NCBI GenBank assembly: GCA_001029635.1
Contig: CP011209.1
Coordinates: 414,866-478,865 of the forward strand
Direction of reading: 5' to 3'
From: Candidatus Wolfebacteria bacterium GW2011_GWB1_47_1
GTDB lineage: Bacteria; Patescibacteriota; Minisyncoccia; UBA6257; UBA9933
Length of the DNA: 64,000 bases
Each line of letters opens with the position of its first letter. Positions within the stretch are counted from its first letter, which is position 1. The position numbers and the translations under genes were made by a program. The notes under the pieces are model-generated. The model saw only the letters and a list, made by a program, of their open reading frames with translations, had not been told where the DNA came from and made no database searches. Below are positions 3,118-55,658 of this stretch, piece by piece.

Positions 3118-4440
3118 ATGGACCAACTGACTCCTGAACTACGAAATATGTTTGCGGAACAACTATTTGGCGCGTTCGTCGAAAACGGAGAAAACGGCGT
3201 ATTTGTCGTTCGCGCGGATGCTTCCATCGCGTATGTCAATCAGGCTATGGGGAAGCTACTCGCATACGATATTGATGCATTTATCGGAAGGCCATTTTTA
3301 GATTTTTGGGCAACGGAATTCAAGGCACTTGGCGAGGAGCGTTATCAGGCTCGTATTGCAGGAGCGGAGCCGCCCAAGCGATATGACATCGAAATGATTC
3401 GCAAGGATGGTTTGCGGCTTCCGGTTGAGGTGACCGCATATCGAATACTGTTTGAGGGAGTTGCTGCTGATGCAATCGTCGTGCGTGACATTAGCGAGCA
3501 TCGTCGATTGGAGGCGGAATTGCGGAATGCCTTAAAACAATCCCGTGAACTCTCATCCGTCGTTGAAACGAGTTTCGACGCCATTGTCATTACGGATTCC
3601 GAGGGGCTTATTACGTATGTTAATAAGAGCTGGCAGGCACTTAACGGATGGGCATCGGAAGAAGTTGTTGGTAAGGTTACTCCGCGTGTTATTAAATCAG
3701 GAAGACAAAATTCTTCATTCTACCGAGTGTTTTGGCAGACGATTAAAGCCGGCTCCAGTGCTCGGCTGGATGTCACTAATCGGCGTAAAGACGGCTCGGA
3801 ATATTTCGCCGAGCTGATTGTTATGCCACTGAAGGATGACCAAGGGCTTATTACGGGATTTGCCGGATTTCAACACGATGTCACGGCGCGCCATCAGGTT
3901 GAGCAGTCGCTTTTTGAAGCGAAGGAATTTGCCGAGCACATCATCGACAGTGCGAATGCGATGGTCGTGGTACTTGATAACACAGGAGCCATCGAGGTGT
4001 TCAACAAGCGGGCTGAAGCGATAACCGGTTATACTAAGGCAGACCTGCAAGGGAAGAATTGGTTTGAGGTGCTGGCGCCGCGTGAGCGCTATCCCGATGT
4101 TTGGCATGTCTTTGAGGATTATCAGAAGCGGGGCATCGTGTTGCAACAATTTGAAAACCCTATTTTGACGAAAGATGGTCGCGAGTTGATGATTGCATGG
4201 ACAAATAGCGAATTGAATCAAGGAGGGCAGACGGTCGGGACAATTTCGTTCGGCATGGACATTACCGACCGCAAGAAGACAGAAGCTCAGCTTTTAACGA
4301 TAAACCAGGAACTGCAGCGGTTTAAAGACCTAATGGTCGGCCGTGAGCTTAAGATGATTGAATTAAAAAAAGAAGTAGAATTATTGCGCGCTGGACAATC
4401 GGGACATCTTCATGCACAAACAGATATCGCTTCGAAATAA
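3118..4440 (+). CDS. Sensor protein with three PAS/PAC domains and no output domain
   Basis: Repeated PAS blocks (..SIAYVNQAMGKLL.., ..DAIVITDSEGLITYVNKSWQALNGW.., ..VVVLDNTGAIEVFNKRAEAITGY..). It ends in the coiled-coil tail GRELKMIELKKEVELLR. The likely start is ATG 3118 (MDQLTPE); the ORF-track N-terminal extension looks spurious. Confidence 0.7.
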   Translation: MDQLTPELRNMFAEQLFGAFVENGENGVFVVRADASIAYVNQAMGKLLAYDIDAFIGRPFLDFWATEFKALGEERYQARIAGAEPPKRYDIEMIRKDGLRLPVEVTAYRILFEGVAADAIVVRDISEHRRLEAELRNALKQSRELSSVVETSFDAIVITDSEGLITYVNKSWQALNGWASEEVVGKVTPRVIKSGRQNSSFYRVFWQTIKAGSSARLDVTNRRKDGSEYFAELIVMPLKDDQGLITGFAGFQHDVTARHQVEQSLFEAKEFAEHIIDSANAMVVVLDNTGAIEVFNKRAEAITGYTKADLQGKNWFEVLAPRERYPDVWHVFEDYQKRGIVLQQFENPILTKDGRELMIAWTNSELNQGGQTVGTISFGMDITDRKKTEAQLLTINQELQRFKDLMVGRELKMIELKKEVELLRAGQSGHLHAQTDIASK

Positions 4441-31695: not shown

Positions 31696-33435
31696 ATGGA
31701 AAACAAGACATTAGTTGATGCTTTAATTCAAGATAATCTACTCGGAGAGATCGAGGGACGAAAGGTATTGCAGGAGGCCGCGCTTGCGCGTCGTCCCGTT
31801 GATGAATTGATCTACGAACAGCGATTGATTGATGAAGAAAAACTTGCCATGGAAAAGGGCAAGCTTTTGAATGTACCGTATCGAAAGATCGACCCACAAG
31901 AGATTAGCGATGAAACACTTAAACTGTTTCCCGAGGAAACAGTGCGTAATTATAAAGTTATACCAGTCAGCATTAAGGATGATCTTTTGATCGCGGGTAT
32001 GGTCAATCCTGATAATGCTCAGGCTCAGGAAGCACTCAAATTTATCGCAAAACAGCGTCGCTTGAATGTAGGGGCATATATTATTACCCCTTCGCTTTGG
32101 GAGATGATTTTGCGAAGATATTCGCCCTATCGCAGTCTTATCGATGAAGCGGTTAGGGCGAGTTCGAGTATTTCGACGAAAGGTGCCGGGCCTACCCAGA
32201 TCGTCCAATTGGAAGAAACAAGAGCGGGGAACTCGGACGAAACGCCTATTATTCGGATCGTATCAACGACGCTAAAGGAAGCCGTTTGGGAGCGCGCATC
32301 TGATATTCATATCGAGCCACAACGCAATCGTAGTCGCATCCGATTCCGTATCGATGGCGAATTGCAGGAGGTTTCTACGCTACCATTGGCGCTGCATTCC
32401 CTAATCGTATCGCGCGTCAAGATTTTGGCGAATTTAAAGATCGACGAAACACGTATTCCTCAAGACGGACGATTCCGTACTGTTTTGTTTGGTCGGGATA
32501 TAGATTATCGCGTCGCAACGTTTCCGACTCCCGTTGGGGAGAAGGTCGTTATTCGTGTACTTGATCCTTCGACCGGATTGCGTGGTCTCGAAGATCTTGG
32601 CTTACGTGGTCGCAACCTAGATACTGTCAAAAAAGGAATAGAAAAACCTTATGGCGTTATTTTGATCACCGGGCCGACCGGTTCGGGAAAGAGTACGACG
32701 CTGTATGCATTGATGCAGCTTTTAAACAAACCGGATATTAATATTGTCAGCCTCGAAGATCCCGTCGAATACTACATGGATGGATTGAATCAGTCTCAGG
32801 TGAAGCCGGAGATTGGATACGATTTTGCTTCGGGACTCCGCCAGATCCTCCGGCAAGATCCTGATGTTATCATGGTTGGAGAAGTCCGCGACGAAGAGAC
32901 TGCAGGGTTGACCATTCAAGCCGCACTGACCGGGCATATCGTGCTTTCGACGCTCCACACAAACAATTCTGTCGGAGTTATCCCGCGACTTATTGATATG
33001 AAGGTACAGCCATTTTTACTTCCCGCTGCCTTGAATATCATGCTTGCTCAGCGGTTGGTTTCTCGTTTGTGCCAGCAGTGTAAAGTTGCGCAACCCGCTT
33101 CCCAGGAGATTGCCAATGTTATCAGTCATGAGCTCGGTAAACTTACTCCGGAGGCGCGCGGGCAGTATGCTCCGACTGGCCCATACAATATTTATCATGC
33201 GCCTGGATGCGAGGTGTGCAAAGGGAAAGGTGTATCGGGACGACTTGCTGTTTTCGAGGTGATGACCATGACTCCTGAATTGGAGCATATTATCAATATC
33301 GGTGCTACCGAGAGTTCTATATTGGATGAAGCCCGTCGTCAAGGCATGGTGACTATGCACCAGGATGGCATCTTGAAGGCGCTTGAGGGGTTGGTGTCTA
33401 TGGAGGAGGTTTTACGAGAAACCGTCGAAATGTAA
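31696..33435 (+). CDS. pilB: Type IV pilus assembly ATPase PilB (GspE family)
   Basis: N-terminal T2SSE_N domain. Walker A ILITGPTGSGKSTTLYA. Asp and His boxes. C-terminal tetracysteine (CQQC..CEVCKGKG). Confidence 0.9.
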   Translation: MENKTLVDALIQDNLLGEIEGRKVLQEAALARRPVDELIYEQRLIDEEKLAMEKGKLLNVPYRKIDPQEISDETLKLFPEETVRNYKVIPVSIKDDLLIAGMVNPDNAQAQEALKFIAKQRRLNVGAYIITPSLWEMILRRYSPYRSLIDEAVRASSSISTKGAGPTQIVQLEETRAGNSDETPIIRIVSTTLKEAVWERASDIHIEPQRNRSRIRFRIDGELQEVSTLPLALHSLIVSRVKILANLKIDETRIPQDGRFRTVLFGRDIDYRVATFPTPVGEKVVIRVLDPSTGLRGLEDLGLRGRNLDTVKKGIEKPYGVILITGPTGSGKSTTLYALMQLLNKPDINIVSLEDPVEYYMDGLNQSQVKPEIGYDFASGLRQILRQDPDVIMVGEVRDEETAGLTIQAALTGHIVLSTLHTNNSVGVIPRLIDMKVQPFLLPAALNIMLAQRLVSRLCQQCKVAQPASQEIANVISHELGKLTPEARGQYAPTGPYNIYHAPGCEVCKGKGVSGRLAVFEVMTMTPELEHIINIGATESSILDEARRQGMVTMHQDGILKALEGLVSMEEVLRETVEM

Positions 33436-33591
33436 ACCGTCTTATCCTCCTGACGTGTAAAACTTTTACATTTTGGTGAGGAATATGAAATATGGTATAC
33501 TAATTAAAATATTATTCTACGTGCTTAGAGGGCAGAGTGGCAGTGATTGCGGATAATTTACTTCGCCTGCGGCTCGGAAATTTCTACGATC

Positions 33592-34668
33592 ATGACCGAT
33601 TACAAACAACAACTTAACGACCTATTACTTTCCACAGCAAAGCAGAACGCTTCCGATCTTCATATTGGTGTCGGAAAATATCCGATGCTTCGTATTGATG
33701 GACTACTTATTCCTCTACAAAAAGAGGGGATTGTTACTCCAGAAGTTGCTACTGGCTTGATTGGTGAGTTGTTGACTCCGGCGCAGCGGGAAACGGTTGA
33801 TCGCGATCGCGAGATCGATTTTTCTTATACATTTGAGGATAAGGCACGCTTTCGCGTCAACGTGTTCTACCAGAAGGGTTTTCTTGCTGCGGCAATGCGC
33901 TTGATCCCGCCTGAGGCTAGGACTGTGGAAGATCTCAATCTCCCTCCAATCCTCCATGATTTCACAAAGCTTTCTCAAGGATTTATCTTGGTTGTGGGTC
34001 CGGCGGGGCATGGTAAATCTACTACGCTTGCGGCACTTGTAGATGAGATTAACCACACTCGCACCGAACACATCATCACTATTGAAGATCCGATCGAATA
34101 CATGTTCGTACAGGATAAGGCTATCGTTTCTCAACGCGAGGTCATGAGCGATACGCCAGATTTTCACGTGGCATTGAAGTCATTGTTGCGCCAGGATCCT
34201 GATATCGTCATGATCGGAGAAATGCGTGATAAGGAGTCTATTGCGACCGCTATGACCGCGGCAGAAACGGGTCATTTGGTATTCTCCACATTGCATACTA
34301 ACTCGGCTGCGCAGACGATCGACCGCATCATCGACAGTTTTCCGCCCGATCAGCAGGGTCAAGTCGCTTCTCAATTGGCCGCAACGCTTGTGGGTATTGT
34401 TTCCCAACGTCTTATTCCGCGCGTTGATGGAGGGCGCACTCCGGCGTGCGAGATCATGATCGTTAATTCCGCTATTCGTAACCTTATCCGTGAGCGCAAG
34501 GCATATCAGATCGATCTTGTTATCGAAACATCCATGCAGGAGGGTATGATCACCTTAAACCGATCACTTGCCGCATTAGTGCGCAGTCGCCAGATCGCAT
34601 TGGAAGAAGCTGAGCTGTATTCGTTGAATGCATCTGAATTGCGCATTCTTATCGAGCGCGTCTCATAA
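33592..34668 (+). CDS. pilT: Twitching-motility retraction ATPase PilT
   Basis: ..ASDLHI..GFILVVGPAGHGKSTTLAALVD... PilT-type length (358 aa). Start at ATG 33592. Confidence 0.9.
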   Translation: MTDYKQQLNDLLLSTAKQNASDLHIGVGKYPMLRIDGLLIPLQKEGIVTPEVATGLIGELLTPAQRETVDRDREIDFSYTFEDKARFRVNVFYQKGFLAAAMRLIPPEARTVEDLNLPPILHDFTKLSQGFILVVGPAGHGKSTTLAALVDEINHTRTEHIITIEDPIEYMFVQDKAIVSQREVMSDTPDFHVALKSLLRQDPDIVMIGEMRDKESIATAMTAAETGHLVFSTLHTNSAAQTIDRIIDSFPPDQQGQVASQLAATLVGIVSQRLIPRVDGGRTPACEIMIVNSAIRNLIRERKAYQIDLVIETSMQEGMITLNRSLAALVRSRQIALEEAELYSLNASELRILIERVS

Positions 34669-34680
34669 AATATATGCATT

Positions 34681-34778
34681 TTGCGAACTGCTTTGTTGCG
34701 GGTCCTAATTGGTTCGGTCACCGTACTGATGGTACGACTTCCTCTCTAATTCTCCCGCGCCTTACATCTCATCAAAAT
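34681..34778 (+). repeat. Copy C of the structured intergenic element
   Basis: gctttgTTGCGGGtcc..ccgtac-tgatg-gtacg..ctCCCGCGCCttaca. It lies 45 nt upstream of pilC. Confidence 0.6.
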
Positions 34779-34822
34779 GGCAAATATTTTATCTAAAAAT
34801 AAACAGGGTAAAAAGCACGACG

Positions 34823-36037
34823 ATGAAATTCAAATACCAAGCACGAAATAAAGAAGGGGAGTTGCAGGTAGGATTTGTCGAGTCGTATTCCCAAGGGGGT
34901 GCGGCCGATATTTTGGTATCCCATGGATTGTATGTCTTAAGCCTTGAAAACGCAGAGCAGGAGAATTTCTTTGATAAATTCATGCTTGTTTTTAAGCGCG
35001 TTACATTAACCGATAAGATGGTTTTTAGTCGACAGTTTGCGACTTTGCTGGAAGCAAAGGTTTCTTTGAGTGATTCGTTGAAGAATCTACAAAAGCAGAC
35101 GTCCAGTGCGACTATGAAGGAAGTAATCCATGAGATCACGGCTGACATCGACAGCGGGCTTTCGCTTTCTCAATCGCTTGAACGACAGAAGGAAGTCTTT
35201 TCCGAATTTTATGTCAGTATGATCCGCTCCGCAGAGATTACCGGCCGATTAGAAGAGGCAGTCATTTATCTTGCAAATTATTTGGAAAAACAAAAGTTGT
35301 GGCGATCTCGTGTGATTAACGCACTTATTTATCCCGCCGTACTTATCGTCATGTTTATCGGCATTGTTCTTCTGATGGTTACCTTGGTGCTCCCTAATAT
35401 CAGACCTATTTTAGAGGAAGCGGGGGCTGAATTGCCATGGTATACGAGTGCTGTTTTGAATAGTGGGGATATTATTATCAACTGGTGGTGGATCATCATC
35501 ATCGCCGTTGTTCCACTTGTTATGTTCGTCTTGGAATACCTTCGTAGTGATGAGGGTAAAATCGTCCTGGATGAGATTCTCTTGCGAACGCCCGTCTTTG
35601 GGAAGATGTTTTCAAAGATGTATATTGCCCGCTTTGCAGAATCACTTGCTATCTTAATTCAAGGGGGCATCCCCATCGCGCAAGCATTAGAGATCACGTC
35701 CCGGTCGATTGGCAGCTCGGTCTTCGAGGATGTTCTGCATGAGGTAAGCGAACAGGTGCGCGGAGGAGAACTTCTTTCGACCGCACTTGGCCGGTATGAT
35801 TTCTATTTTCCGCCTCTTGTGAGCCAGATGATTTCCATCGGAGAAACGACTGGTCGACTCGATGAACTGCTTTCTCGCATATCCACGTTCTATACCCGTG
35901 AGGTCGATGATATCATGGGCCGGCTTGGTGAATTGATTCAGCCGCTTGTCATTGCAATCATCGGTGTATTTGTCGGCTTCTTGTTTGCATCCATCCTCGT
36001 TCCGATATATAATATGGTAAAGTCATTCGGCGCATAA
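34823..36037 (+). CDS. pilC: Type IV pilus platform protein PilC (GspF family)
   Basis: Two T2SSF repeats and three TM helices, with typical ..LSTALGRYDFYFPPLVSQMISIGETTGRLDE... Confidence 0.9.
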   Translation: MKFKYQARNKEGELQVGFVESYSQGGAADILVSHGLYVLSLENAEQENFFDKFMLVFKRVTLTDKMVFSRQFATLLEAKVSLSDSLKNLQKQTSSATMKEVIHEITADIDSGLSLSQSLERQKEVFSEFYVSMIRSAEITGRLEEAVIYLANYLEKQKLWRSRVINALIYPAVLIVMFIGIVLLMVTLVLPNIRPILEEAGAELPWYTSAVLNSGDIIINWWWIIIIAVVPLVMFVLEYLRSDEGKIVLDEILLRTPVFGKMFSKMYIARFAESLAILIQGGIPIAQALEITSRSIGSSVFEDVLHEVSEQVRGGELLSTALGRYDFYFPPLVSQMISIGETTGRLDELLSRISTFYTREVDDIMGRLGELIQPLVIAIIGVFVGFLFASILVPIYNMVKSFGA

Positions 36038-36102
36038 TAGTAACCGAAAACTAACAACCTACGACCAATAATGAAAGCCGTAGGAATATAATAATTATTT
36101 TT

Positions 36103-36543
36103 ATGAAAACATTGCATTACAAAAAAGGTTTCACGTTGGTTGAAATGCTTATCGTCATCGCCATCATCGCAATCCTCGCTTCCGTTGCGTTGGTAAGCGT
36201 TGGAGGAGTTCGACAGTCCGCTCGTGACACGAAGCGCGTTTCTGATATCAGCAAGCTACAGCAGCAACTCGAAGTATATTATTCCCAGAATGGCGCCTAT
36301 CCGGCCGATCTTGCAACCTTCTCAGCCTTTGCCGGTTCTGAAGCAAACTTCACTGACCCGCTCAATGACCCGTATGCGTATGCCGCATATGACAACGACC
36401 AGAAATATCTTCTTGGTATTAATATGGAAGGAGGGACTTCTGCAGAAAATGAACCGAACGAAGTCGACGCGCTTCCTACTGGGCTTGCAGCATTCAGCAT
36501 CTCATGTACCGAAGCTAATCTTGGTTACTGTGTCGGCAACTAA
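36103..36543 (+). CDS. Type IV major pilin
   Basis: KKGFTLVEMLIVIAIIAILASVALVSV: prepilin leader with the G|FTLVE site. Confidence 0.85.
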   Translation: MKTLHYKKGFTLVEMLIVIAIIAILASVALVSVGGVRQSARDTKRVSDISKLQQQLEVYYSQNGAYPADLATFSAFAGSEANFTDPLNDPYAYAAYDNDQKYLLGINMEGGTSAENEPNEVDALPTGLAAFSISCTEANLGYCVGN

Positions 36544-36561
36544 TAGCTTAGCTGAACAAAC

Positions 36562-37461
36562 GTGGATTACCTATTGTATCTGAGTCTTGCCATATTTGGC
36601 CTGATCTTCGGAAGTTTTCTTAACGTTGTGACTATTCGATATAACCCCGACAAGGGGTTTTCGAATATTAAGTCCATCGGGGGGCGTTCGCATTGTCCGA
36701 ACTGCCGCAATCAATTGGCATGGTACGAGCTCGTACCCGTGCTTAGTTTTTTGTCTCTTCGCGGAAGGTGTCGCCATTGCGGACATGCCATATCCTTGCA
36801 ATATCCGTTCGTTGAATTACTGACCGCACTTATCTTCGTCGTTGTTCCAATGCAGGTTATCCTGTCTTCTCGCATACTTGTTCTTGTGGACGTTAACGCT
36901 CATATTGGTGGTATTATTGCGCTTGCGGCTCTTTGGACCGTCGCATTTGTGCTGTTTCTTGTCCTGGCGATCATTGACTTCAAGCACATGATCATTCCCG
37001 ATTCTATCAATGTTTCTTTAGCAGTTCTCGGGATTGCGATCGCGGGTGTTACACAGTGGGTGCATGGATTCGGCGCGTTCCAGGGCTCGTTTTTGCGCCA
37101 CTATGCCGTTATTTTTGGATTCCGCGATACTATTTGGATGAATCATCTTTTTGCTGCGATCATCGGGCTGCTCTTTTTTGGCGGAATCATCGCGGTGAGC
37201 CGCGGTCGTGCCATGGGGTGGGGCGATTTAAAGCTTGCGGGCGCCCTTGGATTGTTGTTCGGCTGGCCTGATGTTGTATTGGTCTTTGCTTTTTCTTTTA
37301 TTATTGGTTCGATCATCTCGATCGGCTTGATGATGCGCGGCCGCAAGCATATGAAGGATGCCGTTCCCTTTGGTCCGTTTTTGGTTATTGGCGCAGTGAT
37401 GGTATTTTTCTTCGGATTTCAATTGGTGTCGCTGTATTTCGGCATGTTCGATGTGATATAA
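36562..37461 (+). CDS. pilD: Prepilin peptidase PilD (A24 family)
   Basis: N-terminus FGLIFGSFLNVV. Zinc-finger CPNC..CRHC. Polytopic peptidase A24 core. Confidence 0.85.
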   Translation: MDYLLYLSLAIFGLIFGSFLNVVTIRYNPDKGFSNIKSIGGRSHCPNCRNQLAWYELVPVLSFLSLRGRCRHCGHAISLQYPFVELLTALIFVVVPMQVILSSRILVLVDVNAHIGGIIALAALWTVAFVLFLVLAIIDFKHMIIPDSINVSLAVLGIAIAGVTQWVHGFGAFQGSFLRHYAVIFGFRDTIWMNHLFAAIIGLLFFGGIIAVSRGRAMGWGDLKLAGALGLLFGWPDVVLVFAFSFIIGSIISIGLMMRGRKHMKDAVPFGPFLVIGAVMVFFFGFQLVSLYFGMFDVI

Positions 37462-37468
37462 TTAATGC

Positions 37469-38041
37469 ATGCGACAAACAAGGCGTAGCATTTACCGTGT
37501 AGTGGGACGACGGGGGACGACCCTCGTAGAGATCATGATCGTTTTTGGACTCGTTTCCCTATTGATCTCTGCGACGGCTGTTTATAACCGGGCTATTCAG
37601 CGACAGATTGTTCTCACGCGTGAACATGCTACTGCGCTTGGTCTTTTTATTCGTGCACGTTCGGCGGGACTTACCGCCCCAAGAGGCACTTCTGGGGAGC
37701 TTGTTTGCGGATACGGCATCCATATCGATGCCGCATCGAGAACATTCACCTTCTTTAAGGATCTCGGAATATCTCCAGCCGATTGTTCGTCTGCGGACTT
37801 TTCTTATACCGATGCTACCGAGAAGATCGACCAAAAAATTTTAGGAGATTCGGTTAGCGTCACTGACAGTGGCGTTTCTGATATCGTATACACGCCACCC
37901 TATGGGAAGGTCTATACGGACGGAATTGAAGCATCTGATTCTGTTTCGGTCATTATTACTAGCCTTGATACGGGTTCGGCAAAAGGGATCAGGGCAAATG
38001 CCTTTGGGCAGATAACAGAATATCTATTACCAACGCCATGA
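37469..38041 (+). CDS. Minor pilin / pseudopilin
   Basis: N-terminus GRRGTTLVEIMIVFGLVSLLISATAV (prepilin-type). Confidence 0.55.
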   Translation: MRQTRRSIYRVVGRRGTTLVEIMIVFGLVSLLISATAVYNRAIQRQIVLTREHATALGLFIRARSAGLTAPRGTSGELVCGYGIHIDAASRTFTFFKDLGISPADCSSADFSYTDATEKIDQKILGDSVSVTDSGVSDIVYTPPYGKVYTDGIEASDSVSVIITSLDTGSAKGIRANAFGQITEYLLPTP

Positions 38042-38553
38042 AGCAGAAAGCCCACATACATTCACGTGGATATTTATTAATCGAAGCCATGGTCGCTATG
38101 ACCGTTTTAACGACCGGAGTGCTTGGTATCTTTGCGTTGATGTCCCAATCGATCAAACTTACCCGCGTGATTAACGATCAATATATAGCAACCTATCTTG
38201 CCGCAGAAGGTATCGAAGTGACAAAAAATTTGTTGGATGCAAATACTCCCGATATTAACGCGGGGCGACCCTGGAATGATGGTGGATTCGACAGTAGTGG
38301 ATGCTATGAGATCGATATTAATACCTCAGCTTTGAGCAGTGCCTCTCCTGTTGCGTGTGCCGCTGGAAGTGTTACTCCGTTGCAGTTTGATGGATCGGTC
38401 TATCAGTATGGATCGGGTTCGGCAACTCGTTATACGCGGACGGTTGATGTTCAGCCAATCGGCACGATCGGCGTGCGGATTGTTTCGACGGTTGCCTGGG
38501 CAGCGGGTGCCTCGTCTATTACATTGGAGGATAAATTTTATGATTGGCACTGA
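38038..38553 (+). CDS. Minor pilin / pseudopilin (PilV-like)
   Basis: N-terminus SRGYLLIEAMVAMTVLTTGVLGIFAL. Its start overlaps the previous stop (ATGA). Confidence 0.55.
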   Translation: MKQKAHIHSRGYLLIEAMVAMTVLTTGVLGIFALMSQSIKLTRVINDQYIATYLAAEGIEVTKNLLDANTPDINAGRPWNDGGFDSSGCYEIDINTSALSSASPVACAAGSVTPLQFDGSVYQYGSGSATRYTRTVDVQPIGTIGVRIVSTVAWAAGASSITLEDKFYDWH

Positions 38554-38556
38554 TCT

Positions 38557-39243
38557 ATGGATATAACACCACTGCATCGTAAGCGCACAGCGCGCACGGG
38601 CGTTACTTTAATCGAATTCGTTGTTGCGTTCGGTATTTTTACCATGCTGATCACAATTGCGAGCGGCAGCTTTATTCGTTCCATGCGAGTACAGCGCACT
38701 TCGCTGCAGCTTATGTCGGTTAACGACAATATGGGAATTACGCTAGAACAGATGATGCGTGAGATGAGAACCGGATACCATTTCTGCACTGCCACCGACG
38801 GGATGACATACGCGGGCATTCCTGCGGAGGTTATCACCCAGTGTCAAAATCTTGCGTCCGGTCTAAACTTGAGCGAGATTCAGTTCTTTAATGCGAGTAA
38901 CGAAATCGTCCGCTATCGCTGGATAAACGAAATGCTCGAAAAGGGAATCTCGCGTGCGGAATTTTTTGATCCGGTCGCCGGGGCTTCGCTCTGCGGCGAC
39001 GGCACTTTGGATATTGTGAACGGCATCTGCTACCACATCATCACGGGGGATAATATTAAAATCACAAACGCATACTTCAGACCGAGTTATAACGATGACG
39101 GTGATGGCTATTCGCCGCGCATTACATTGAGTTTTTCATTGACGACTAATGATCCAGTCGCCGAATCGATTGCCACTCCTATAACCATTCAGACGACGGT
39201 CAGCGCACGCTGTGGAGAATCTACCTGCCCTGGGGATAGTTGA
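38557..39243 (+). CDS. Minor pilin / pseudopilin (PilW-like)
   Basis: N-terminus TGVTLIEFVVAFGIFTMLITIASG. Confidence 0.55.
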   Translation: MDITPLHRKRTARTGVTLIEFVVAFGIFTMLITIASGSFIRSMRVQRTSLQLMSVNDNMGITLEQMMREMRTGYHFCTATDGMTYAGIPAEVITQCQNLASGLNLSEIQFFNASNEIVRYRWINEMLEKGISRAEFFDPVAGASLCGDGTLDIVNGICYHIITGDNIKITNAYFRPSYNDDGDGYSPRITLSFSLTTNDPVAESIATPITIQTTVSARCGESTCPGDS

Positions 39244-39264
39244 TGCAATAATAGATATTCACTT

Positions 39265-39651
39265 ATGAAAAAAACCATCTTTCCTCATAACCCATATCGG
39301 ACCGGACAGTCGATGATTCTTACCGTATTGGTACTTTCGAGTGCCGTTCTTGCCTTATCGGCTATCGGCGGTTATATGATGCTGATTCGCCTGCGTATCA
39401 ATTCTGACATCGTCAATACGACCAAGGCTATTTATATCGCCGATGCGGGTCTTGAATGTGAGGCGTACAATCAATTCCAATTGGCGGACATTGATTGTAA
39501 TGACATCCCGTATAATGCATTTCCTCATACGAGCGGGGTAGTGGATCCTAGGGCCTCTTATGTTAGTGAATATACCGCCGGCCCTCCCTCGTATATGCTA
39601 TCAAAGGGGTCGTATCGATCTGCGAGTCGCTCCTTTAGACTTGGTTTTTAA
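39265..39651 (+). CDS. PilX-like minor pilin (hypothetical)
   Basis: N-terminal hydrophobic helix GQSMILTVLVLSSAVLALSAIGGYMM. Last gene of the pilin block. Confidence 0.4.
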   Translation: MKKTIFPHNPYRTGQSMILTVLVLSSAVLALSAIGGYMMLIRLRINSDIVNTTKAIYIADAGLECEAYNQFQLADIDCNDIPYNAFPHTSGVVDPRASYVSEYTAGPPSYMLSKGSYRSASRSFRLGF

Positions 39652-39745: not shown

Positions 39746-42568
39746 ATGCAATTCAAAAAAGTTGAGAAAAAGTGGCGGGAAGCATGGAAAAAGGAGGGTG
39801 TCTACCGGGTAAAGGATGCTGTTAAGGGAAAGAAGAATTTTTATCACATGGTTATGTTCCCGTATCCGTCGGGGGATTTGCATATCGGGCATTGGTATAA
39901 TTTTGCGCCGGCAGACGTGTTTGCGCGGTTCAAGCGTATGCGCGGGTTTAACGTTCTTTCTCCAATCGGGTTTGATGCATTCGGTCTTCCGGCTGAGAAT
40001 GCGGCGATCAAGCGCGGAATCCATCCGAAGACGTGGACGTATAAGAATATCAAGACGATGACGGCCCAGTTAGAAAATATGGGTACGATGTATGACTGGG
40101 AGCGAAGCGTGATCACTGCCGATCCCGAGTATTATAAGTGGACGCAATGGATGTTCTTGCAATTGTTCCATGCCGGGCTGGCATATCGCACGAAGGCAAA
40201 GGCAAACTGGTGTCCGAAGGATCGGACTGTTCTTGCGAATGAGCAGGTTATTGATGGTAAGTGTGACCGGTGTGGAACCGAGGTCGTGCAGCGTGATATT
40301 GACCAATGGCTTCTGAAGATCACCAGCTACGCCGATCGGCTATTGGCTGACTTGGAAGGACTTGATTGGCCGGAGAAGACCAAGGCTATGCAGCGTAACT
40401 GGATCGGAAAATCCGAGGGTTCGTTGGTTGCGTTTGCTATTGAGGGTATTGACCAAGCTGTTTCAAAAGAGACGCTTAAATTCAGGCCGTATTTGATCGC
40501 ACCGGTTCTTTCGGGTGAAAAATATATTACTCATCGTCTTGAGTCAAAAGCTGTGAAGGTGGGAGATCTCGTGCCACTCATCAATTGGGCGAGTAAGGAG
40601 CAATTTGGGTTGGCGCGTATTACTAAGGTAGTTAAGGACGTGATGAAAAATGTTTCCGAAACTCAGGATGGCCATGAGAAATTCAAGAACCGAAAGGAAT
40701 TTTATGCAACGTATGCAAAATATTACAACAAGGTCGTCGATGATGATACCGCTATTTGGATGTATCACTTTGAGTTGGTTTCGCCATCGATTGATGTATT
40801 CACAACTCGTGTAGATACCATCTTTGGGTGTACCTATGTCGTGGTAGCTCCCGAGCATAAACTCATCGAGGCGCTGAAAGGGCAGATCGAAAATTATAAG
40901 GAGGTTTCCGTCTATACCGCCAAGGCACGCAAGAAGCTTGAGCTCGATCGCATGATGGAGGAAAAGACAAAGACGGGAGTCGAGCTTAAGGGTATTCGTG
41001 CCATCAATCCTTTTACGGGAGACGCTGTCCCTGTCTATGTCGCGGATTACGTATTAGGCGGTTATGGAACTGGGGCGGTTATGGCCGTGCCGGCACATGA
41101 TGAGCGTGACCTTGCGTTTGCGAAGCAATTTAAATTGCCGATTAAAGTTTCTGTCGCCGGAACGTCTACCGAGCTAGGGGAATGTATGATTGATGATGGA
41201 ACGCTGGTCGATTCCGGATCATTTACCGGGATGAATTCTGTAGCTGCGCGGACTGAGATGACTAAGTGGCTCAAGCAGCAAGACTCCGGTTCTGGAACGA
41301 TCAACTACAAGTTGCGCGACTGGCTTATTTCTCGTCAGCGGTATTGGGGATCTCCTATCCCGCTCGTATTTTGTGAACACTGCAAGACGCGCATCGAATC
41401 GGGCGATTACAAGAAAGGAGAATTCACCAAAGGGGAATTGGCTAATCCGGGATGGATCGGCGTGAAGGAGAAAGCACTGCCGGTACTGCTTCCGCCGGTG
41501 AAGAATTATCTGCCGACCGAAGAAGGCAAGTCTCCACTTGCGCATTCGAAATCTTTTGTGAATACTTCGTGCCCGCACTGTGCTTCCAAAGGTGTTCGTG
41601 AGACGGATACTATGGACACCTTCATGTGCTCTTCTTGGTATTATCTGCGATATCCCGATCCGAAGAATGCAAAGCAATTTGCCGATCCGAAGAAATTGGC
41701 GGCGTGGTTGCCAACCGATATGTATATCGGAGGAGCGGAACATTCCGTCATGCATTTATTGTATGCGCGATTTTTCACCAAGGTCCTTTATGATCTGAAG
41801 CAGGTCAAATTCAAAGAACCGTTTATGGCATTGCGGCATCAGGGAACGATCCTTGGTCCCGATGGACAAAAGATGTCCAAATCAAAAGGGAATGTTATTG
41901 ATCCTGACGATCTGGTCGATCGGTTTGGTGCCGATGCTGTGCGGATGTATCTGTGTTTTATGGGCCCGTATGACCAAGGAGGTCCGTGGCAACCGGGAGG
42001 TATGGTTGGGATCGCCCGATTCCTTCAGCGCACTGAACAATTATATGATGCATATAGCAAAGGTGCGCATACTGCGAAGCGATCGGCAAAGGGTAATCCA
42101 TTGAAGAAGATTTTGCATCAGACTATCAAGAAGGTTACGGAAGATATCGCAGAGTTCCGTTTTAATACGGCTGTGAGTTCGTTAATGATATTACTTAATG
42201 CAATGGATGATCAGCGTGAATATATCGATGCTGAGGTTCTTGAGCAGTTCCTCCTCCTACTTGCCCCATTCGCCCCTTATTTTGCTGAAGAATTGTATCG
42301 TGGCTTGTTGGGCAATAAGACATCTATTCATATCGTGCCATGGCCGAAGTATGCTGCCCGCCTTGCCGTCGAGAATGAGTTTGAACTCGTGATCCAGGTC
42401 AATGGCAAGACGCGTGACACCATGCGGGTGCCCAAGGGTACTACGCAAGAGCGCGCACGTGAGATTGCACTTGCTTCCCCAAAGGTGCACGCCGTCGCCC
42501 TTGGTATGCAGGTCAAAAAGGTCATCTTCGTTCCCGACCGACTTATCAATCTGGTTATAGGAATATGA
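39746..42568 (+). CDS. leuS: Leucyl-tRNA synthetase with a roughly 115-aa insertion upstream of the editing domain
   Basis: HIGH (PSGDLHIGH) and KMSKS (KMSKSKGN) motifs. Zinc knuckle CPKDR..CDRCG. Editing-domain motifs TTRVDT and AHDERD. C-terminal anticodon-binding domain. Confidence 0.95.
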   Translation: MQFKKVEKKWREAWKKEGVYRVKDAVKGKKNFYHMVMFPYPSGDLHIGHWYNFAPADVFARFKRMRGFNVLSPIGFDAFGLPAENAAIKRGIHPKTWTYKNIKTMTAQLENMGTMYDWERSVITADPEYYKWTQWMFLQLFHAGLAYRTKAKANWCPKDRTVLANEQVIDGKCDRCGTEVVQRDIDQWLLKITSYADRLLADLEGLDWPEKTKAMQRNWIGKSEGSLVAFAIEGIDQAVSKETLKFRPYLIAPVLSGEKYITHRLESKAVKVGDLVPLINWASKEQFGLARITKVVKDVMKNVSETQDGHEKFKNRKEFYATYAKYYNKVVDDDTAIWMYHFELVSPSIDVFTTRVDTIFGCTYVVVAPEHKLIEALKGQIENYKEVSVYTAKARKKLELDRMMEEKTKTGVELKGIRAINPFTGDAVPVYVADYVLGGYGTGAVMAVPAHDERDLAFAKQFKLPIKVSVAGTSTELGECMIDDGTLVDSGSFTGMNSVAARTEMTKWLKQQDSGSGTINYKLRDWLISRQRYWGSPIPLVFCEHCKTRIESGDYKKGEFTKGELANPGWIGVKEKALPVLLPPVKNYLPTEEGKSPLAHSKSFVNTSCPHCASKGVRETDTMDTFMCSSWYYLRYPDPKNAKQFADPKKLAAWLPTDMYIGGAEHSVMHLLYARFFTKVLYDLKQVKFKEPFMALRHQGTILGPDGQKMSKSKGNVIDPDDLVDRFGADAVRMYLCFMGPYDQGGPWQPGGMVGIARFLQRTEQLYDAYSKGAHTAKRSAKGNPLKKILHQTIKKVTEDIAEFRFNTAVSSLMILLNAMDDQREYIDAEVLEQFLLLLAPFAPYFAEELYRGLLGNKTSIHIVPWPKYAARLAVENEFELVIQVNGKTRDTMRVPKGTTQERAREIALASPKVHAVALGMQVKKVIFVPDRLINLVIGI

Positions 42569-53633: not shown

Positions 53634-55658
53634 ATGGCGAAAAAAGCAGAAAACATCGATGAGCTAATCGAGCAGGCTCAGGAAAAGGAGTCGAAGAAGG
53701 TAGCCGCCAAAAAATTGGAGGACCCGATCGATAACAGGGGCAATGCCTCGTATAGTGCAAAGGATATTCAGGTTCTCGAAGGATTGGAACCGGTGCGCAA
53801 GCGTCCGGGTATGTATATCGGCTCTACTGGAGCGCAGGGATTGCACCACTTGATTTGGGAAGTTTTCGACAACTCGCTCGATGAAGCGATGGCGGGCTAC
53901 GCCAAGAATATCAAAGTAGAGTTGTTAAAGGATGGTACGGTCACTGTGCAGGATGACGGACGTGGCATTCCCGTAGACATTCATCCGAAGACAAAAAAGT
54001 CGGCGCTCGAAACTGCGGCGACTACATTGCATGCCGGCGGAAAATTCGATGGTGATTCATATAAGGTCTCCGGAGGCTTGCATGGCGTGGGACTTTCTGT
54101 TGTGAACGCACTTTCTACCTGGATGAAGATAGAAGTGTGCAAGGAGGGAACGATGTACGTGCAAGAGTATAAGATCGGCAAACCACAATATGATGTAAAG
54201 AAGGCTGGCAAGTGCACGGCAAATGGAACCAAGGTTTCATTCAGGCCTGACGGGACAATCTTTTCAACACTCGAATTCGATCGCAAGGAGATTGTCGGAC
54301 ATTTGCGCCAACAGGCATTTCTTACGAAGGGCATCCGTATCGAGATCATCGACGATCGTGAGGATGTTCCGTTTTACTACTCGTTTTATTTTGAAGGTGG
54401 ACTCGTTTCGTTCGTTCGGTACGTGAATCGTAATCACACTCCCGTACATAAGGAGATCTTCTATGTGCATAAAAGTTCGGAGAGTATCGACGTTGAAACC
54501 GCATTTATTTATAACGATGACCCGGATGCTCGTGAGCTTAGCTTTGCGAACAATATCTATACGCCTGACGGAGGTATGCATGTGACCGGATTCCGTACTG
54601 CATTGACGCGTGCGTTGAATGACTTTGCGCGAAGTATTAATGCGCTGAAGGGATCCGAAGATAATTTGACTGGCGATGACGTACGCGAAGGCATTACGGC
54701 AATCATTTCCGTCAAGCTGCGCGACCCACAATTCGAAGGGCAGACCAAAGCTCGTCTCGGAACACCTGGGGCGCGGGGTGCAGTGGAGTCCGTGCTTTCG
54801 GAGGCGCTAAAGGAATACTTTGAAAAATATTCCGGGGATGCGAAGGCAATTATCGAAAAATGTATCTTGGCGCAAAAGGCCCGCAAGGCCGCCAAGGCCG
54901 CCAAGGACACCGTACTACGTAAGGGCATGCTCGAGGGGATGACCCTGCCGGGTAAGCTCGCGGATTGTTCGAGTCGCAAGGCGCAGGATTCCGAGATTTA
55001 CATCGTTGAGGGAGACTCCGCAGGCGGTAGCGCCAAGCAGGGGCGTGATCGTCGATTCCAGGCGATTCTTCCGCTTAAAGGAAAGATCTTAAACGTTGAG
55101 AAGGCGCGTTTGGATAAAATGTTATTGAACAATGAAATCAAGTCCTTGGTCATCGCGTTGGGTACTGCTATCTCGGATAGTTTTGATATCGAAAAATTAC
55201 GTTATCATAAGGTGATTATTATGACCGATGCTGATACTGATGGAGCGCACATCCGCACGTTGTTGTTGACGTTGTTCTATCGGTATTTCCGTCCTGTTAT
55301 TGAAGGAGGATTTTTGTATATCGCGCAGCCACCGTTGTTCCGACTTCAGTTGGGTAAGGATGTTCGCTATGTCTATACGCCCGATGAAAAGGACAAGGCC
55401 GTTACCGATATGACTGCCGGTAAAAAGGCTGAGGCTAACGTGAATGTGCAGCGCTATAAGGGACTCGGAGAAATGAACCCTGATCAGTTGTGGGATACGA
55501 CCATGAATCCTGAATTCCGTACATTGCTTCAGGTTATGATCGATGATGCTGAGGAAGCTGATCGCTTGTTCGAGATCCTTATGGGTGATGAGGTTGCTCC
55601 GCGTAAGCAGTTTATTCAATCGAATGCTACGCTTGTTAGTAATCTCGACATCACTTAG
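53634..55658 (+). CDS. gyrB: DNA gyrase subunit B
   Basis: ..LEGLEPVRKRPGMYIGSTG.. HATPase N-terminal domain. TOPRIM (EIYIVEGDSAGGSAKQGRDRRFQAILPLKGKILNVEKA). C-terminal ..QRYKGLGEMNPDQLW... It ends in a TAG stop. Confidence 0.95.
   Translation: MAKKAENIDELIEQAQEKESKKVAAKKLEDPIDNRGNASYSAKDIQVLEGLEPVRKRPGMYIGSTGAQGLHHLIWEVFDNSLDEAMAGYAKNIKVELLKDGTVTVQDDGRGIPVDIHPKTKKSALETAATTLHAGGKFDGDSYKVSGGLHGVGLSVVNALSTWMKIEVCKEGTMYVQEYKIGKPQYDVKKAGKCTANGTKVSFRPDGTIFSTLEFDRKEIVGHLRQQAFLTKGIRIEIIDDREDVPFYYSFYFEGGLVSFVRYVNRNHTPVHKEIFYVHKSSESIDVETAFIYNDDPDARELSFANNIYTPDGGMHVTGFRTALTRALNDFARSINALKGSEDNLTGDDVREGITAIISVKLRDPQFEGQTKARLGTPGARGAVESVLSEALKEYFEKYSGDAKAIIEKCILAQKARKAAKAAKDTVLRKGMLEGMTLPGKLADCSSRKAQDSEIYIVEGDSAGGSAKQGRDRRFQAILPLKGKILNVEKARLDKMLLNNEIKSLVIALGTAISDSFDIEKLRYHKVIIMTDADTDGAHIRTLLLTLFYRYFRPVIEGGFLYIAQPPLFRLQLGKDVRYVYTPDEKDKAVTDMTAGKKAEANVNVQRYKGLGEMNPDQLWDTTMNPEFRTLLQVMIDDAEEADRLFEILMGDEVAPRKQFIQSNATLVSNLDIT

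What the first reader, a model, noticed from the sequence alone, without database searches (positions are those of the whole stretch)
40440..40790. Roughly 115-residue ASCH/PUA-like insertion in leucyl-tRNA synthetase just upstream of the editing domain
In canonical bacterial LeuS, for example the Thermus enzyme, the NWIGRSEG..F segment runs into the TTRPDT start of the CP1 editing domain within about 12 residues. Here about 115 residues intervene (..AIEGIDQAVSKETLKFRPYLIAPVLSGEKYITHRLESKAVKVGDLVPLINWASKEQFGLARITKVVKDVMKNV..YHFELV). The segment has a GxKxxxxR motif and a beta-rich pattern reminiscent of ASCH/PUA RNA-binding barrels. The TTRVDT to AHDERD span is shorter than in model enzymes (about 110 aa against about 165), so the insert may compensate for a trimmed editing domain or add an RNA-binding module. 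I do not recognise this as a described LeuS architecture.
Basis: partly seen in the sequence, partly recalled or inferred. Interest (0 to 1): 0.6.

Follow-up and report, generated by a model that had tools for sequence, protein, structure and literature searches.

The report
ASCH enzyme domain inserted in LeuRS
The leucyl-tRNA synthetase of this Candidatus Wolfebacteria genome carries a complete small ASCH domain, of the type that removes acetyl groups from cytidine, spliced into a surface loop of its proofreading domain; no searchable paper describes this layout, and it gives a testable link between tRNA charging and tRNA de-modification.

Summary
The insertion is real. It spans aa 237-348 of a 940-aa bacterial-type LeuRS (window 39746-42568, +), about 110 residues more than Thermus LeuRS and most CPR relatives have at that point.

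It is a complete YqfB-type ASCH domain:
- Pfam ASCH scores 33.4 bits against a cut-off of 21.2.
- The AlphaFold model has pLDDT 87, and its best Foldseek match is E. coli YqfB (TM 0.72/0.79).
- The GxKxxTxR octapeptide, the acid Glu and a ribose-binding Tyr are all kept.

It sits in the loop of the first beta-hairpin of the CP1 editing domain, nine residues before the editing threonines.

The TTRxDT-to-AHDxRD span is 97 residues here and in most of the relatives where both motifs could be located, and about the same in Thermus.

The source is a large family of ~110-aa stand-alone ASCH proteins in Patescibacteria. The insert occurs in Wolfebacteria, Howlettbacteria and a few unnamed lineages. 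It is under purifying selection. In most carriers it has turned basic. It was lost at least twice among close relatives, so it is accessory.

Best reading (inferred): an N4-acylcytidine amidohydrolase or reader tethered to tRNA-Leu by LeuRS. This is a new variant of known kinds. Other CPR LeuRS carry NUDIX or nucleotidyltransferase-like domains at a second CP1 site.

The parts
39746..42568 (+). leuS gene: 940-aa bacterial-type leucyl-tRNA synthetase, identical to a Candidatus Wolfebacteria protein (DEB29_04465)
   Evidence: ORF. Pfam tRNA-synt_1, the LeuRS editing domain and Anticodon_1. Thermus LeuRS 1h3n at E 7.5e-225. 100% identical to P0001. Full-length AF2 model has pLDDT 90.1; TM normalised to the target is 0.85 against E. 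coli LeuRS 4aq7.
39878..39895 (+). HIGH signature (LHIGHW, aa 45-50)
   Evidence: H46, G48 and H49 are invariant in the 94-sequence alignment.
40409..40441 (+). First beta-strand of the CP1 editing domain (KSEGSLVAFAI, aa 222-232), the N-terminal arm of the hairpin that hosts the insert
   Evidence: DSSP strand E222-232 in the full-length model. Aligns with Thermus RSEGAEILFPV.
40454..40789 (+). Inserted segment as defined by comparison with Thermus LeuRS and insert-less relatives (aa 237-348)
   Evidence: Relatives P0011-P0014 (78-82% identical over aligned columns) go from WIGKSEG..F to ..VFTTRVDT in 23-27 residues.
40463..40783 (+). ASCH domain proper (aa 240-346), YqfB-type
   Evidence: Pfam PF04266 at 33.4 bits against a cut-off of 21.2. 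Stand-alone ~110-aa homologues down to E 3.6e-19 in 1.8 billion proteins. AF2 pLDDT 87.3. Foldseek best match 9kyf YqfB, TM 0.72/0.79.
40514..40537 (+). ASCH octapeptide GEKYITHR (G257, K259, T262, R264), the 'GKTR' type
   Evidence: K, T and R are invariant in 28 and in 121 aligned family members. They align with YqfB K21/T24/R26. Their Ala mutants are inactive in YqfB (PMC6972931).
40670..40678 (+). GHE motif (G309, H310, E311). E311 aligns with the YqfB acid residue Glu74
   Evidence: Profile alignment. E is invariant in all 16 LeuRS inserts. G is invariant and H and E nearly so in the stand-alone family.
40721..40726 (+). YY (Y326-Y327). Y327 aligns with YqfB Tyr89, the ribose/base contact
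   Evidence: PMC6972931.
40787..40804 (+). Second beta-strand of the hairpin (SIDVFT, aa 348-353). Only three residues separate it from the last ASCH strand
   Evidence: DSSP strands E336-344 and E348-353.
40802..40819 (+). Thr-rich editing motif TTRVDT (aa 353-358)
   Evidence: T353, T354, R355, D357 and T358 are invariant. Aligns with Thermus TTRPDT.
41093..41110 (+). Editing-site AHDERD (aa 450-455), 97 residues after TTRVDT, the usual spacing
41843..41884 (+). GTILGPDGQ-KMSKS: the KMSKS loop preceded by a short linker where the leucine-specific domain would be
   Evidence: Thermus residues 580-634 have no counterpart (query 704 to 707).. Compare the M. mobile GKDG linker (PMC3643597).

Best explanation
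Shown:
- A complete ~105-aa ASCH domain of the threonine-type (GxKxxTxR, YqfB-like) subgroup has been inserted into the loop of the first beta-hairpin of the LeuRS CP1 editing domain.
- It comes from a very abundant family of ~110-aa stand-alone ASCH proteins in Patescibacteria.
- The host enzyme keeps all its own synthetic-site and editing-site signatures.
- The insert keeps the residues that are essential for amide hydrolysis in YqfB (Lys, Thr, Arg, Glu, Tyr).
- The insert is under purifying selection.
- In the Wolfebacteria and Howlettbacteria lineages it has changed from acidic to basic.

Inferred:
- The domain is a working N4-acylcytidine (ac4C-type) amidohydrolase, or at least a pocket that binds a modified cytidine.
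- LeuRS acts as its tRNA-binding platform. Minimal ASCH domains bind tRNA poorly on their own. Being welded within about 10 residues of the editing-site threonines places the pocket next to the acceptor side of bound tRNA-Leu.
- There it could remove or sense an N-acyl mark during the charging and proofreading cycle.
- The function is accessory, not part of leucylation, because close relatives have lost the insert cleanly.
For: Domain identity:
- Pfam ASCH above cut-off.
- An exhaustive search gives 214 hits, mostly ~110-aa proteins matched end to end at 35-45% identity.
- At least 2253 family clusters, named ASCH domain-containing protein in Patescibacteria.
- AF2 pLDDT is 87.3 alone, and 85-96 per 10-residue block in the full-length model.
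- Foldseek best hits are YqfB 9kyf/9kyh, followed by other ASCH structures.

Catalytic residues:
- A family profile hits YqfB at E 3e-6, with K21/T24/R26/E74/Y89 aligned to K259/T262/R264/E311/Y327.
- Across the 16 LeuRS inserts, K and E are invariant, Thr or Ser is present in all 16, and Arg in 15.
- In YqfB, K21A, T24A and R26A are inactive, E74A is 100-1000 times slower, and T24S is about wild type (PMC6972931).

Activity of the superfamily on tRNA:
- All 19 ASCH proteins tested removed ac4C from tRNA. An isolated archaeal ASCH domain showed no detectable tRNA binding, and an appended HTH domain supplied the binding (preprint 10.64898/2026.02.27.708502).

Selection:
- pN is 0.19-0.34 in the insert, while synonymous sites are saturated (pS at least 0.76).
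- Between Wolfebacteria and Howlettbacteria the insert is as conserved as the rest of LeuRS, about 50%.

Charge shift:
- Insert pI is 8.9-9.5 (net +3 to +6), against a stand-alone median pI of 5.3 (net -3).

Tight tethering:
- The last ASCH strand ends at residue 344, the hairpin strand is 348-353, and the editing Thr residues are 353/354.

Host specificity:
- The only large host proteins among the listed hits (best 150 of 214) are LeuRS.
Against: - No activity, substrate or tRNA contact was or could be tested here.
- Model coordinates are not returned, so it is unknown whether the ASCH pocket faces the tRNA.
- It is unknown whether Wolfebacteria tRNAs carry ac4C or whether these genomes encode an ac4C writer. 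In bacteria ac4C is known only at the wobble position of elongator tRNA-Met, far from CP1 (my own knowledge).
- The insert is dispensable. Insert-less P0013 is sister to ASCH-bearing P0008 (bootstrap 99). P0011 lies inside a 100%-supported clade of carriers.
- One carrier has Cys in place of the octapeptide Arg (P0006), and one has TCE in place of GHE (P0046).
- P0192 and P0207 inserts stay acidic.
- Two of the seven residues invariant in the YqfB branch are not matched by alignment: Asp27 is Leu here, and His70 is offset.
- The protein is far below the YqfB equivalog cut-off (14.2 bits against 93).
- Fusions of the same subfamily with HAD phosphatase and NUDIX, and a neighbouring nucleotide-kinase-like gene, also fit a nucleoside or nucleotide-level role.
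Confidence: 0.4

Rival explanations
1. The domain is a non-catalytic RNA-binding or anchoring module. It has become basic and simply adds affinity or selectivity for tRNA-Leu, for example for the acceptor or D-arm side or the CCA cytidines. It might partly stand in for the missing leucine-specific domain.
For: - Inserts shifted to pI ~9 from an acidic stand-alone family.
- This LeuRS lacks the leucine-specific domain. In E. coli that domain contributes to tRNA binding and discrimination (PMC3643597).
- ASCH and PUA-like folds are nucleic-acid binders in several proteins (one search hit list).
Against: - The catalytic Lys, Thr/Ser and Glu are kept in all 16 inserts. A pure binder would not need them.
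- The related CPR LeuRS in the set generally show the same short spacing where the leucine-specific domain would be, whether or not they carry ASCH. The insert is therefore not a specific compensation.
- P0192 and P0207 inserts are acidic.
- The insert is lost in close relatives without any other visible change.
Confidence: 0.25
2. The domain is a nucleoside-level salvage enzyme that merely rides in LeuRS. It hydrolyses free N4-acetylcytidine or N4-acylcytosines to cytidine for pyrimidine salvage, as proposed for E. coli YqfB. The fusion gives co-expression only, with no functional coupling to tRNA-Leu.
For: - YqfB's best substrate is the free nucleoside (PMC6972931).
- The stand-alone family is very common in Patescibacteria, organisms that depend on salvage (my own knowledge).
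- The same subfamily is fused to a HAD phosphatase and to NUDIX, and one copy sits next to an AAA_18 kinase-like gene.
- Repeated loss fits a non-integrated passenger.
Against: - Insertion into an internal hairpin with a three-residue linker is a demanding way to achieve co-expression, compared with an end-to-end fusion.
- The only large hosts among the listed hits are LeuRS, and always at the same loop.
- Most carriers show the acid-to-base charge shift.
- Other partners of the subfamily are RNA enzymes: NYN RNase and a marginal DUF1045 match, 21.9 bits against a 24.3-bit cut-off.
Confidence: 0.2
3. The insert is a neutral or decaying passenger, or an intein, a mobile element or an assembly artefact, with no function of its own.
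For: - It is lost in several close relatives.
- Its GC content is lower than the rest of the gene, 0.417 against 0.492.
- It evolves 2-3 times faster than the rest of LeuRS within Wolfebacteria.
Against: - It is in frame and intact in at least 16 clusters from independent samples.
- pN is far below the saturated pS.
- Catalytic motifs are conserved.
- The fold is predicted with confidence.
- Pfam gives no intein or Hint hit.
- The low GC is at least partly explained by its Lys-rich composition.
Confidence: 0.05

Closest known systems
E. coli YqfB (N4-acetylcytidine amidohydrolase; PDB 1te7, 9kyf-9kyh)
   Same: - Same ASCH beta-barrel, and the best structural match (TM 0.72/0.79).
- Same size, about 105 aa.
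- Same threonine-type octapeptide GxKxxTxR.
- Aligned Glu74 and Tyr89 equivalents.
   Different: - Only about 19% identical, and far below the YqfB equivalog cut-off.
- Asp27 and His70 are not matched by alignment.
- It is not a free protein. It is embedded in a loop of an aminoacyl-tRNA synthetase.
- It is basic rather than a small soluble nucleoside enzyme.
Stand-alone ~110-aa ASCH proteins of Patescibacteria (e.g. P0122, P0271-P0390)
   Same: - 35-50% identical over the whole length.
- Same motifs: LKF, GEKxxTxR, GHE, YY.
- This is clearly the source family.
   Different: - The stand-alone proteins are acidic (median pI 5.3).
- They have RLFDDK and VKIIxF where the LeuRS inserts have RLEPK and IWMYHFE.
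- In a neighbour-joining tree all LeuRS inserts group together with only two stand-alone proteins.
Archaeal ASCH-HTH proteins (Afu3ASCH, Pku4ASCH) described as tRNA ac4C erasers
   Same: Same logic as proposed here. A small catalytic ASCH domain lacks tRNA affinity of its own and is joined to a tRNA-binding partner (preprint 10.64898/2026.02.27.708502).
   Different: - There the partner is a C-terminal HTH appended end to end, and it binds tRNA generally.
- Here the partner would be a whole tRNA-Leu-specific synthetase, and the ASCH is an internal insertion.
- No activity has been measured for the LeuRS form.
Canonical bacterial LeuRS (Thermus thermophilus 1h3n/2bte, E. coli 4aq7/4arc)
   Same: - Same domain order, HIGH and KMSKS motifs, zinc-binding segment, CP1 editing domain with Thr-rich and Asp motifs, anticodon-binding and C-terminal domains.
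- E 7.5e-225 by sequence.
- TM normalised to the target up to 0.85.
   Different: - It has the ASCH domain in the first CP1 hairpin.
- It lacks the leucine-specific domain (Thermus 580-634).
- It has an extra ~22-residue segment at aa 547-570.
CPR LeuRS with NUDIX or nucleotidyltransferase-like inserts (seen here: P0018, P0057, P0028)
   Same: A nucleotide-processing enzyme domain is inserted into the CP1 editing domain of a Patescibacteria LeuRS.
   Different: - The domain is different.
- The site is different: after about position 147 of the 185-position editing-domain model, between AHDxRD and RDWxxSRQR.
- I found no description of these either.

Membership tests
ASCH domain (Pfam PF04266) | Score above the Pfam gathering threshold | tested here: met
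   33.4 bits on the insert alone and 28.7 in the full protein, against a cut-off of 21.2. Matches model positions 2-102 of 103.
ASCH domain (Pfam PF04266) | Small beta-barrel ASCH fold | tested here: met
   AF2 pLDDT 87.3. The 23 best Foldseek PDB hits are all ASCH-type structures (YqfB, EF3133, ZmASCH, PH0355, TTHA0113, EOLA1), with TMq 0.72 for the best (YqfB) and 0.46-0.71 for the others.
YqfB-type ('GKTR') ASCH amidohydrolases | Octapeptide GxKxxTxR with Thr rather than Glu | tested here: met
   G257-E-K259-Y-I-T262-H-R264. Aligned to YqfB K21/T24/R26. Subgroup definition taken from preprint 10.64898/2026.02.27.708502.
YqfB-type ('GKTR') ASCH amidohydrolases | The seven residues invariant in the YqfB branch (K21, T24, R26, D27, H70, E74, Y89; PMC6972931) | tested here: inconclusive
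   Five align (K259, T262, R264, E311, Y327). D27 corresponds to L265. H70 aligns with D308, with a His two residues later at H310. This rests on a sequence-profile alignment only; no structural superposition of side chains was available.
YqfB orthologue (NCBIfam NF003443 equivalog) | Score at or above the curated equivalog cut-off (93 bits) | tested here: not met
   14.2 bits for the insert and 18-27 bits for stand-alone relatives. This is a distinct subfamily, not YqfB itself.
YqfB-type ('GKTR') ASCH amidohydrolases | Hydrolysis of N4-acetylcytidine (free or in tRNA) | not testable with these tools
   Needs enzyme assays.
Bacterial-type leucyl-tRNA synthetase | HIGH and KMSKS motifs, CP1 editing domain with Thr-rich motif and conserved Asp, anticodon-binding domain | tested here: met
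Bacterial-type leucyl-tRNA synthetase | Leucine-specific domain before KMSKS (present in most but not all LeuRS) | tested here: not met
   Thermus 580-634 has no counterpart. A GPDGQ linker takes its place. M. mobile LeuRS also lacks this domain (PMC3643597), so this does not exclude membership.
PUA domain proper | Match to a PUA family model or to PUA structures as best neighbours | tested here: not met
   No PUA family among Pfam hits at E up to 1. PUA-like domains (ATP sulfurylase N-terminal domain, YTH) appear only as weak Foldseek hits from rank 24 onward.
Intein / mobile insertion | Hint/intein blocks and splice-junction residues | tested here: not met
   No intein or Hint Pfam hit. The junctions read ..EGID|QAV.. 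and ..VSPS|IDVF.., without the His-Asn + Cys/Ser/Thr pattern at the C-terminal junction.

The most novel reading that the evidence does not exclude
LeuRS in these bacteria is a synthetase with a built-in tRNA-modification eraser. The embedded ASCH domain would actively remove an N-acyl mark from tRNA-Leu while the tRNA is held for charging and proofreading. The mark could be ac4C, or conceivably an acetyl group placed on Leu-tRNA-Leu by a GNAT-type toxin. Charging would then be coupled to the modification or damage state of the tRNA. More broadly, the CP1 domain of Patescibacteria LeuRS would be a docking platform for nucleotide-processing enzymes: ASCH at one loop, NUDIX or a nucleotidyltransferase-like domain at another.
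Probability: 0.2. Interest if true: 0.85.

Novelty: new variant of a known kind. Interest (0 to 1): 0.6.

Why it matters
Aminoacyl-tRNA synthetases are known to acquire appended domains. An enzyme domain of an RNA de-modification family inserted inside the proofreading domain has not been described in any paper I could search.

A 2026 preprint reports that ASCH proteins from all three domains of life remove ac4C from tRNA, and that the minimal domain needs a partner to bind tRNA. This LeuRS would be a natural case in which the partner is a tRNA-specific synthetase.

That makes several questions directly testable with one recombinant protein and a clean natural deletion control (the insert-less relatives):
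- Do ASCH erasers have defined tRNA targets?
- Do CPR bacteria use ac4C at all?
- Can editing domains host second activities?

The parallel NUDIX and nucleotidyltransferase-like inserts suggest a wider, unexplored pattern in reduced-genome bacteria.

Tried and rejected
- A word-index protein search with the insert alone found nothing, not even the identical protein. This is a limit of the tool. The exhaustive search and a profile search succeeded.
- The 16-sequence insert alignment was too divergent for a genome scan. A 10-sequence version worked, but only with two narrow peptide patterns. Four carriers among GTDB species representatives is therefore a lower bound.
- dN/dS could not be estimated because synonymous sites are saturated in every pair. 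Only pN against pS is reported.
- The DNA alignment of the junction with the insert-less locus L001 was uninformative. The protein-level flanks show that the deletion end points coincide with the domain borders.
- The "trimmed editing domain" idea is rejected.
- Intein, mobile element and assembly artefact readings are rejected.
- I tested whether stand-alone ASCH genes are regularly paired with a GNAT acetyltransferase, as a writer-eraser or toxin-antitoxin cassette. This was seen once and not in three other contexts, so I do not rely on it.
- There is no other ASCH gene in the 64-kb window. There is none in the 20 kb of the syntenic insert-less contig that was read.
- Model coordinates are not returned, so the position of the ASCH pocket relative to the editing site and the tRNA could not be measured.
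- The organism behind the widely sampled P0207 cluster (246 members) could not be named.
Full report
**What is there**

The finding lies in a 940-aa ORF at 39746-42568 on the + strand. It is a bacterial-type leucyl-tRNA synthetase.
- Pfam finds the class I catalytic domain, the LeuRS editing domain and the anticodon-binding domain.
- Thermus thermophilus LeuRS (1h3n) matches at E 7.5e-225.
- The protein is identical to a database entry from Candidatus Wolfebacteria, a member of the Patescibacteria/CPR.
- HIGH (aa 46-49), KMSKS (709-713), the Thr-rich editing motif TTRVDT (353-358) and AHDERD (450-455) are all present. They are invariant in an alignment of 94 relatives.

**The observation**

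In the alignment with Thermus LeuRS, query residue 236 pairs with Thermus 240 and query 349 with Thermus 243. Residues 237-348 (window 40454-40789) are therefore extra.
- In 120 related LeuRS, the distance from WIGKS to TTRxDT is most often 24 residues. Here it is 134.
- Relatives that are 78-82% identical over aligned columns (P0011-P0014) bridge the same two strands with a loop of a few residues.
- One of these relatives lies in a syntenic locus, with type IV pilus genes upstream and an HtrA-like protease downstream.

The TTRxDT-to-AHDxRD span is 97 residues in this protein and in most of the relatives where both motifs could be located, and the same within two residues in Thermus. The editing domain is not trimmed. 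The insert also lies inside the editing domain rather than upstream of it. The Pfam editing-domain model begins about 20 positions before the insertion point.

**What the insert is**

On its own the segment scores 33.4 bits against Pfam ASCH (cut-off 21.2), covering model positions 2-102 of 103.
- An exhaustive HMMER search of 1.84 billion representative proteins gave 214 hits. Most are proteins of 106-116 aa matched from end to end at 35-45% identity, with a best stand-alone E-value of 3.6e-19.
- A profile search returned at least 2253 such clusters. Where named, they are "ASCH domain-containing protein" from Patescibacteria.
- The insert therefore corresponds to one whole small protein.
- AlphaFold2 folds it with pLDDT 87.3 alone. 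In the full-length model (mean pLDDT 90.1, pTM 0.80) it scores 85-96 per ten-residue block, and the two host strands (222-232 and 348-353) are kept.
- Foldseek against the PDB puts E. coli YqfB first (9kyf, TM 0.72/0.79, rmsd 2.6 A). Other ASCH structures follow.
- PUA proper, inteins and mobile elements are not supported.

**Catalytic residues**

A profile of the family hits YqfB at E 3e-6. It aligns YqfB K21, T24, R26, E74 and Y89 with K259, T262, R264, E311 and Y327.
- In YqfB, K21A, T24A and R26A are inactive, E74A is 100-1000 times slower, and T24S is about as active as wild type (PMC6972931).
- K, T, R and the second Tyr are invariant in 28 and in 121 family members.
- In the 16 LeuRS inserts, Lys and Glu are invariant. 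Thr is present in 14 and Ser in 2. Arg is present in 15; P0006 has Cys.
- The motif is the threonine ("GKTR") form of the ASCH octapeptide, as defined in a 2026 preprint.
- Two YqfB-branch residues are not matched: Asp27 is Leu here, and His70 is offset.
- The score against the YqfB equivalog model is far below its cut-off. This is a separate subfamily, not YqfB.

**Where it sits**

The insertion point is the loop of the first beta-hairpin of CP1.
- That loop varies naturally in length among relatives (WIGKS-to-TTR distances of 18-66), so it is a permissive site.
- The last ASCH strand ends at residue 344. The returning host strand starts at 348 and runs straight into the editing threonines 353/354.
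- The domain is therefore held close to the editing pocket. From chain length alone I estimate about 20-30 A at most.

**Distribution and history**

ASCH-bearing LeuRS were found in these places:
- ten close Wolfebacteria clusters, 75-84% identical;
- three more distant clusters, P0015, P0017 and P0046;
- a Howlettbacteria genome;
- three further lineages, P0121, P0192 and P0207. The last is a cluster of 246 member sequences.

Among the listed hits of the exhaustive search (the best 150 of 214), the only large host proteins are LeuRS. In a neighbour-joining tree all LeuRS inserts form one group, together with two genuine stand-alone proteins. This fits one or a few insertion events.

A bootstrapped tree of LeuRS with the insert removed gives these results:
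- insert-less P0013 is sister to ASCH-bearing P0008 (99%);
- insert-less P0011 lies inside a 100%-supported clade of carriers.

Carriers P0009 and P0010 are more divergent from the window protein than the insert-less forms are. The insert was therefore lost cleanly at least twice. It is accessory.

It is nevertheless under constraint.
- Non-synonymous differences are 0.19-0.34 per site, while synonymous sites are saturated.
- Between Wolfebacteria and Howlettbacteria the insert is as conserved as the rest of the enzyme.
- Inserts of most carriers are basic (pI 8.9-9.5), whereas stand-alone relatives are acidic (median 5.3). Two lineages are exceptions.

**How it most likely works**

The preprint reports three things:
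- all 19 ASCH proteins tested removed ac4C from tRNA;
- Lys and Thr/Glu of the octapeptide are essential;
- an isolated archaeal ASCH domain showed no detectable tRNA binding, and an appended HTH domain supplied it.

The Wolfebacteria protein has an intact catalytic set, has turned basic, and is welded next to the site where the 3' end of tRNA-Leu is proofread. From this I infer that LeuRS serves as the tRNA-binding partner of an N4-acylcytidine amidohydrolase or reader acting on bound tRNA-Leu. Only the domain identity, residue conservation, selection, charge shift and tethering are shown. Activity, substrate and geometry are inferred (confidence 0.4).

Rival readings:
- a binding-only module (0.25);
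- a nucleoside-salvage enzyme with no coupling to LeuRS (0.2). Fusions of the same subfamily to HAD phosphatase and NUDIX support this, while fusions to NYN RNase argue against it;
- a functionless passenger (0.05).

**Comparison and novelty**

The parts are known: a bacterial LeuRS and a YqfB-like ASCH domain. Automated pipelines already tag the domain in these database entries. The combination is not described in any paper I could search. I rate it a new variant of a known kind, interest 0.6.

**Related observation**

Other Patescibacteria LeuRS carry a NUDIX domain or a nucleotidyltransferase-like domain at a second site in CP1. The same ASCH subfamily is itself found fused to NUDIX. The editing domain of LeuRS thus seems to be a recurrent host for nucleotide-processing domains in this group.

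Noticed in passing
Related proteins P0018 (aa 384-501), P0057 (aa 433-528), P0023, P0030, P0033, P0037, P0039, P0103; P0028 (aa 373-470): Other Patescibacteria LeuRS carry a ~145-residue insert at a second site in the CP1 editing domain, after about position 147 of 185 of the Pfam model and between AHDxRD and RDWxxSRQR. The insert is a NUDIX domain in eight clusters and a nucleotidyltransferase-like domain (PF10706/PF14907) in one.
   Followed up: partly
window 41843-41884 (aa 700-713): This LeuRS lacks the leucine-specific domain. Thermus residues 580-634 have no counterpart, and a short GPDGQ linker precedes KMSKS, like the GKDG linker of Mycoplasma mobile LeuRS (PMC3643597). Most related CPR LeuRS in the set show the same short spacing.
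   Followed up: partly
window 41384-41455 (aa 547-570): There is a segment of about 22 residues specific to this clade (KTRIESGDYKKGEFTKGELANPGW), after the first Cys pair of the second zinc-binding region. It is absent from Thermus LeuRS and from most CPR relatives: the RDW-to-KMSKS spacing is 185 here against a mode of 163.
   Followed up: no
L010 108-452 and 449-991: P0154 is one of the two stand-alone proteins that group with the LeuRS inserts. Its gene overlaps by 4 nt a downstream GNAT acetyltransferase gene, followed by histidine phosphatase and inositol monophosphatase genes. This could be an acetyl writer-eraser pair. It was not seen in three other stand-alone ASCH contexts.
   Followed up: partly
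Proteins P0149, P0166, P0167, P0144, P0146, P0170: The same ASCH subfamily occurs fused to NUDIX, NYN ribonuclease (twice), a HAD phosphatase, a PepE-like peptidase, and a region with a marginal DUF1045 match (21.9 bits against a 24.3-bit cut-off).
   Followed up: partly
LeuRS inserts compared with stand-alone ASCH proteins (alignments A2, A3): Inserts in Wolfebacteria, Howlettbacteria, P0046 and P0121 are basic (pI 8.9-9.5, net +3 to +6), while 117 stand-alone relatives are acidic (median pI 5.3). The P0192 and P0207 inserts remain acidic.
   Followed up: yes
P0207 cluster; locus L009 6001-8751: One ASCH-bearing LeuRS (916 aa, TTRPDT type) stands for 246 member sequences on many contigs of up to 174 kb. 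It therefore comes from a frequently sampled organism, which I could not name.
   Followed up: partly
window 40463-40783: The insert has lower GC than the rest of leuS: 0.417 against 0.492 overall, and 0.467 against 0.537 at third codon positions. Its Lys-rich composition explains part of this.
   Followed up: partly
window 31696-39651: A type IV pilus or pseudopilin gene cluster lies directly upstream of leuS, and the arrangement is conserved in the insert-less relative's contig. Elsewhere in the window there are a Cache-HAMP-PAS histidine kinase (4412-6841), a TrwB/VirD4-like coupling ATPase (25239-27617) and gyrB (53634-55658). The only RNA genes are tRNA-Gln(CTG) and tRNA-Gly(CCC).
   Followed up: no
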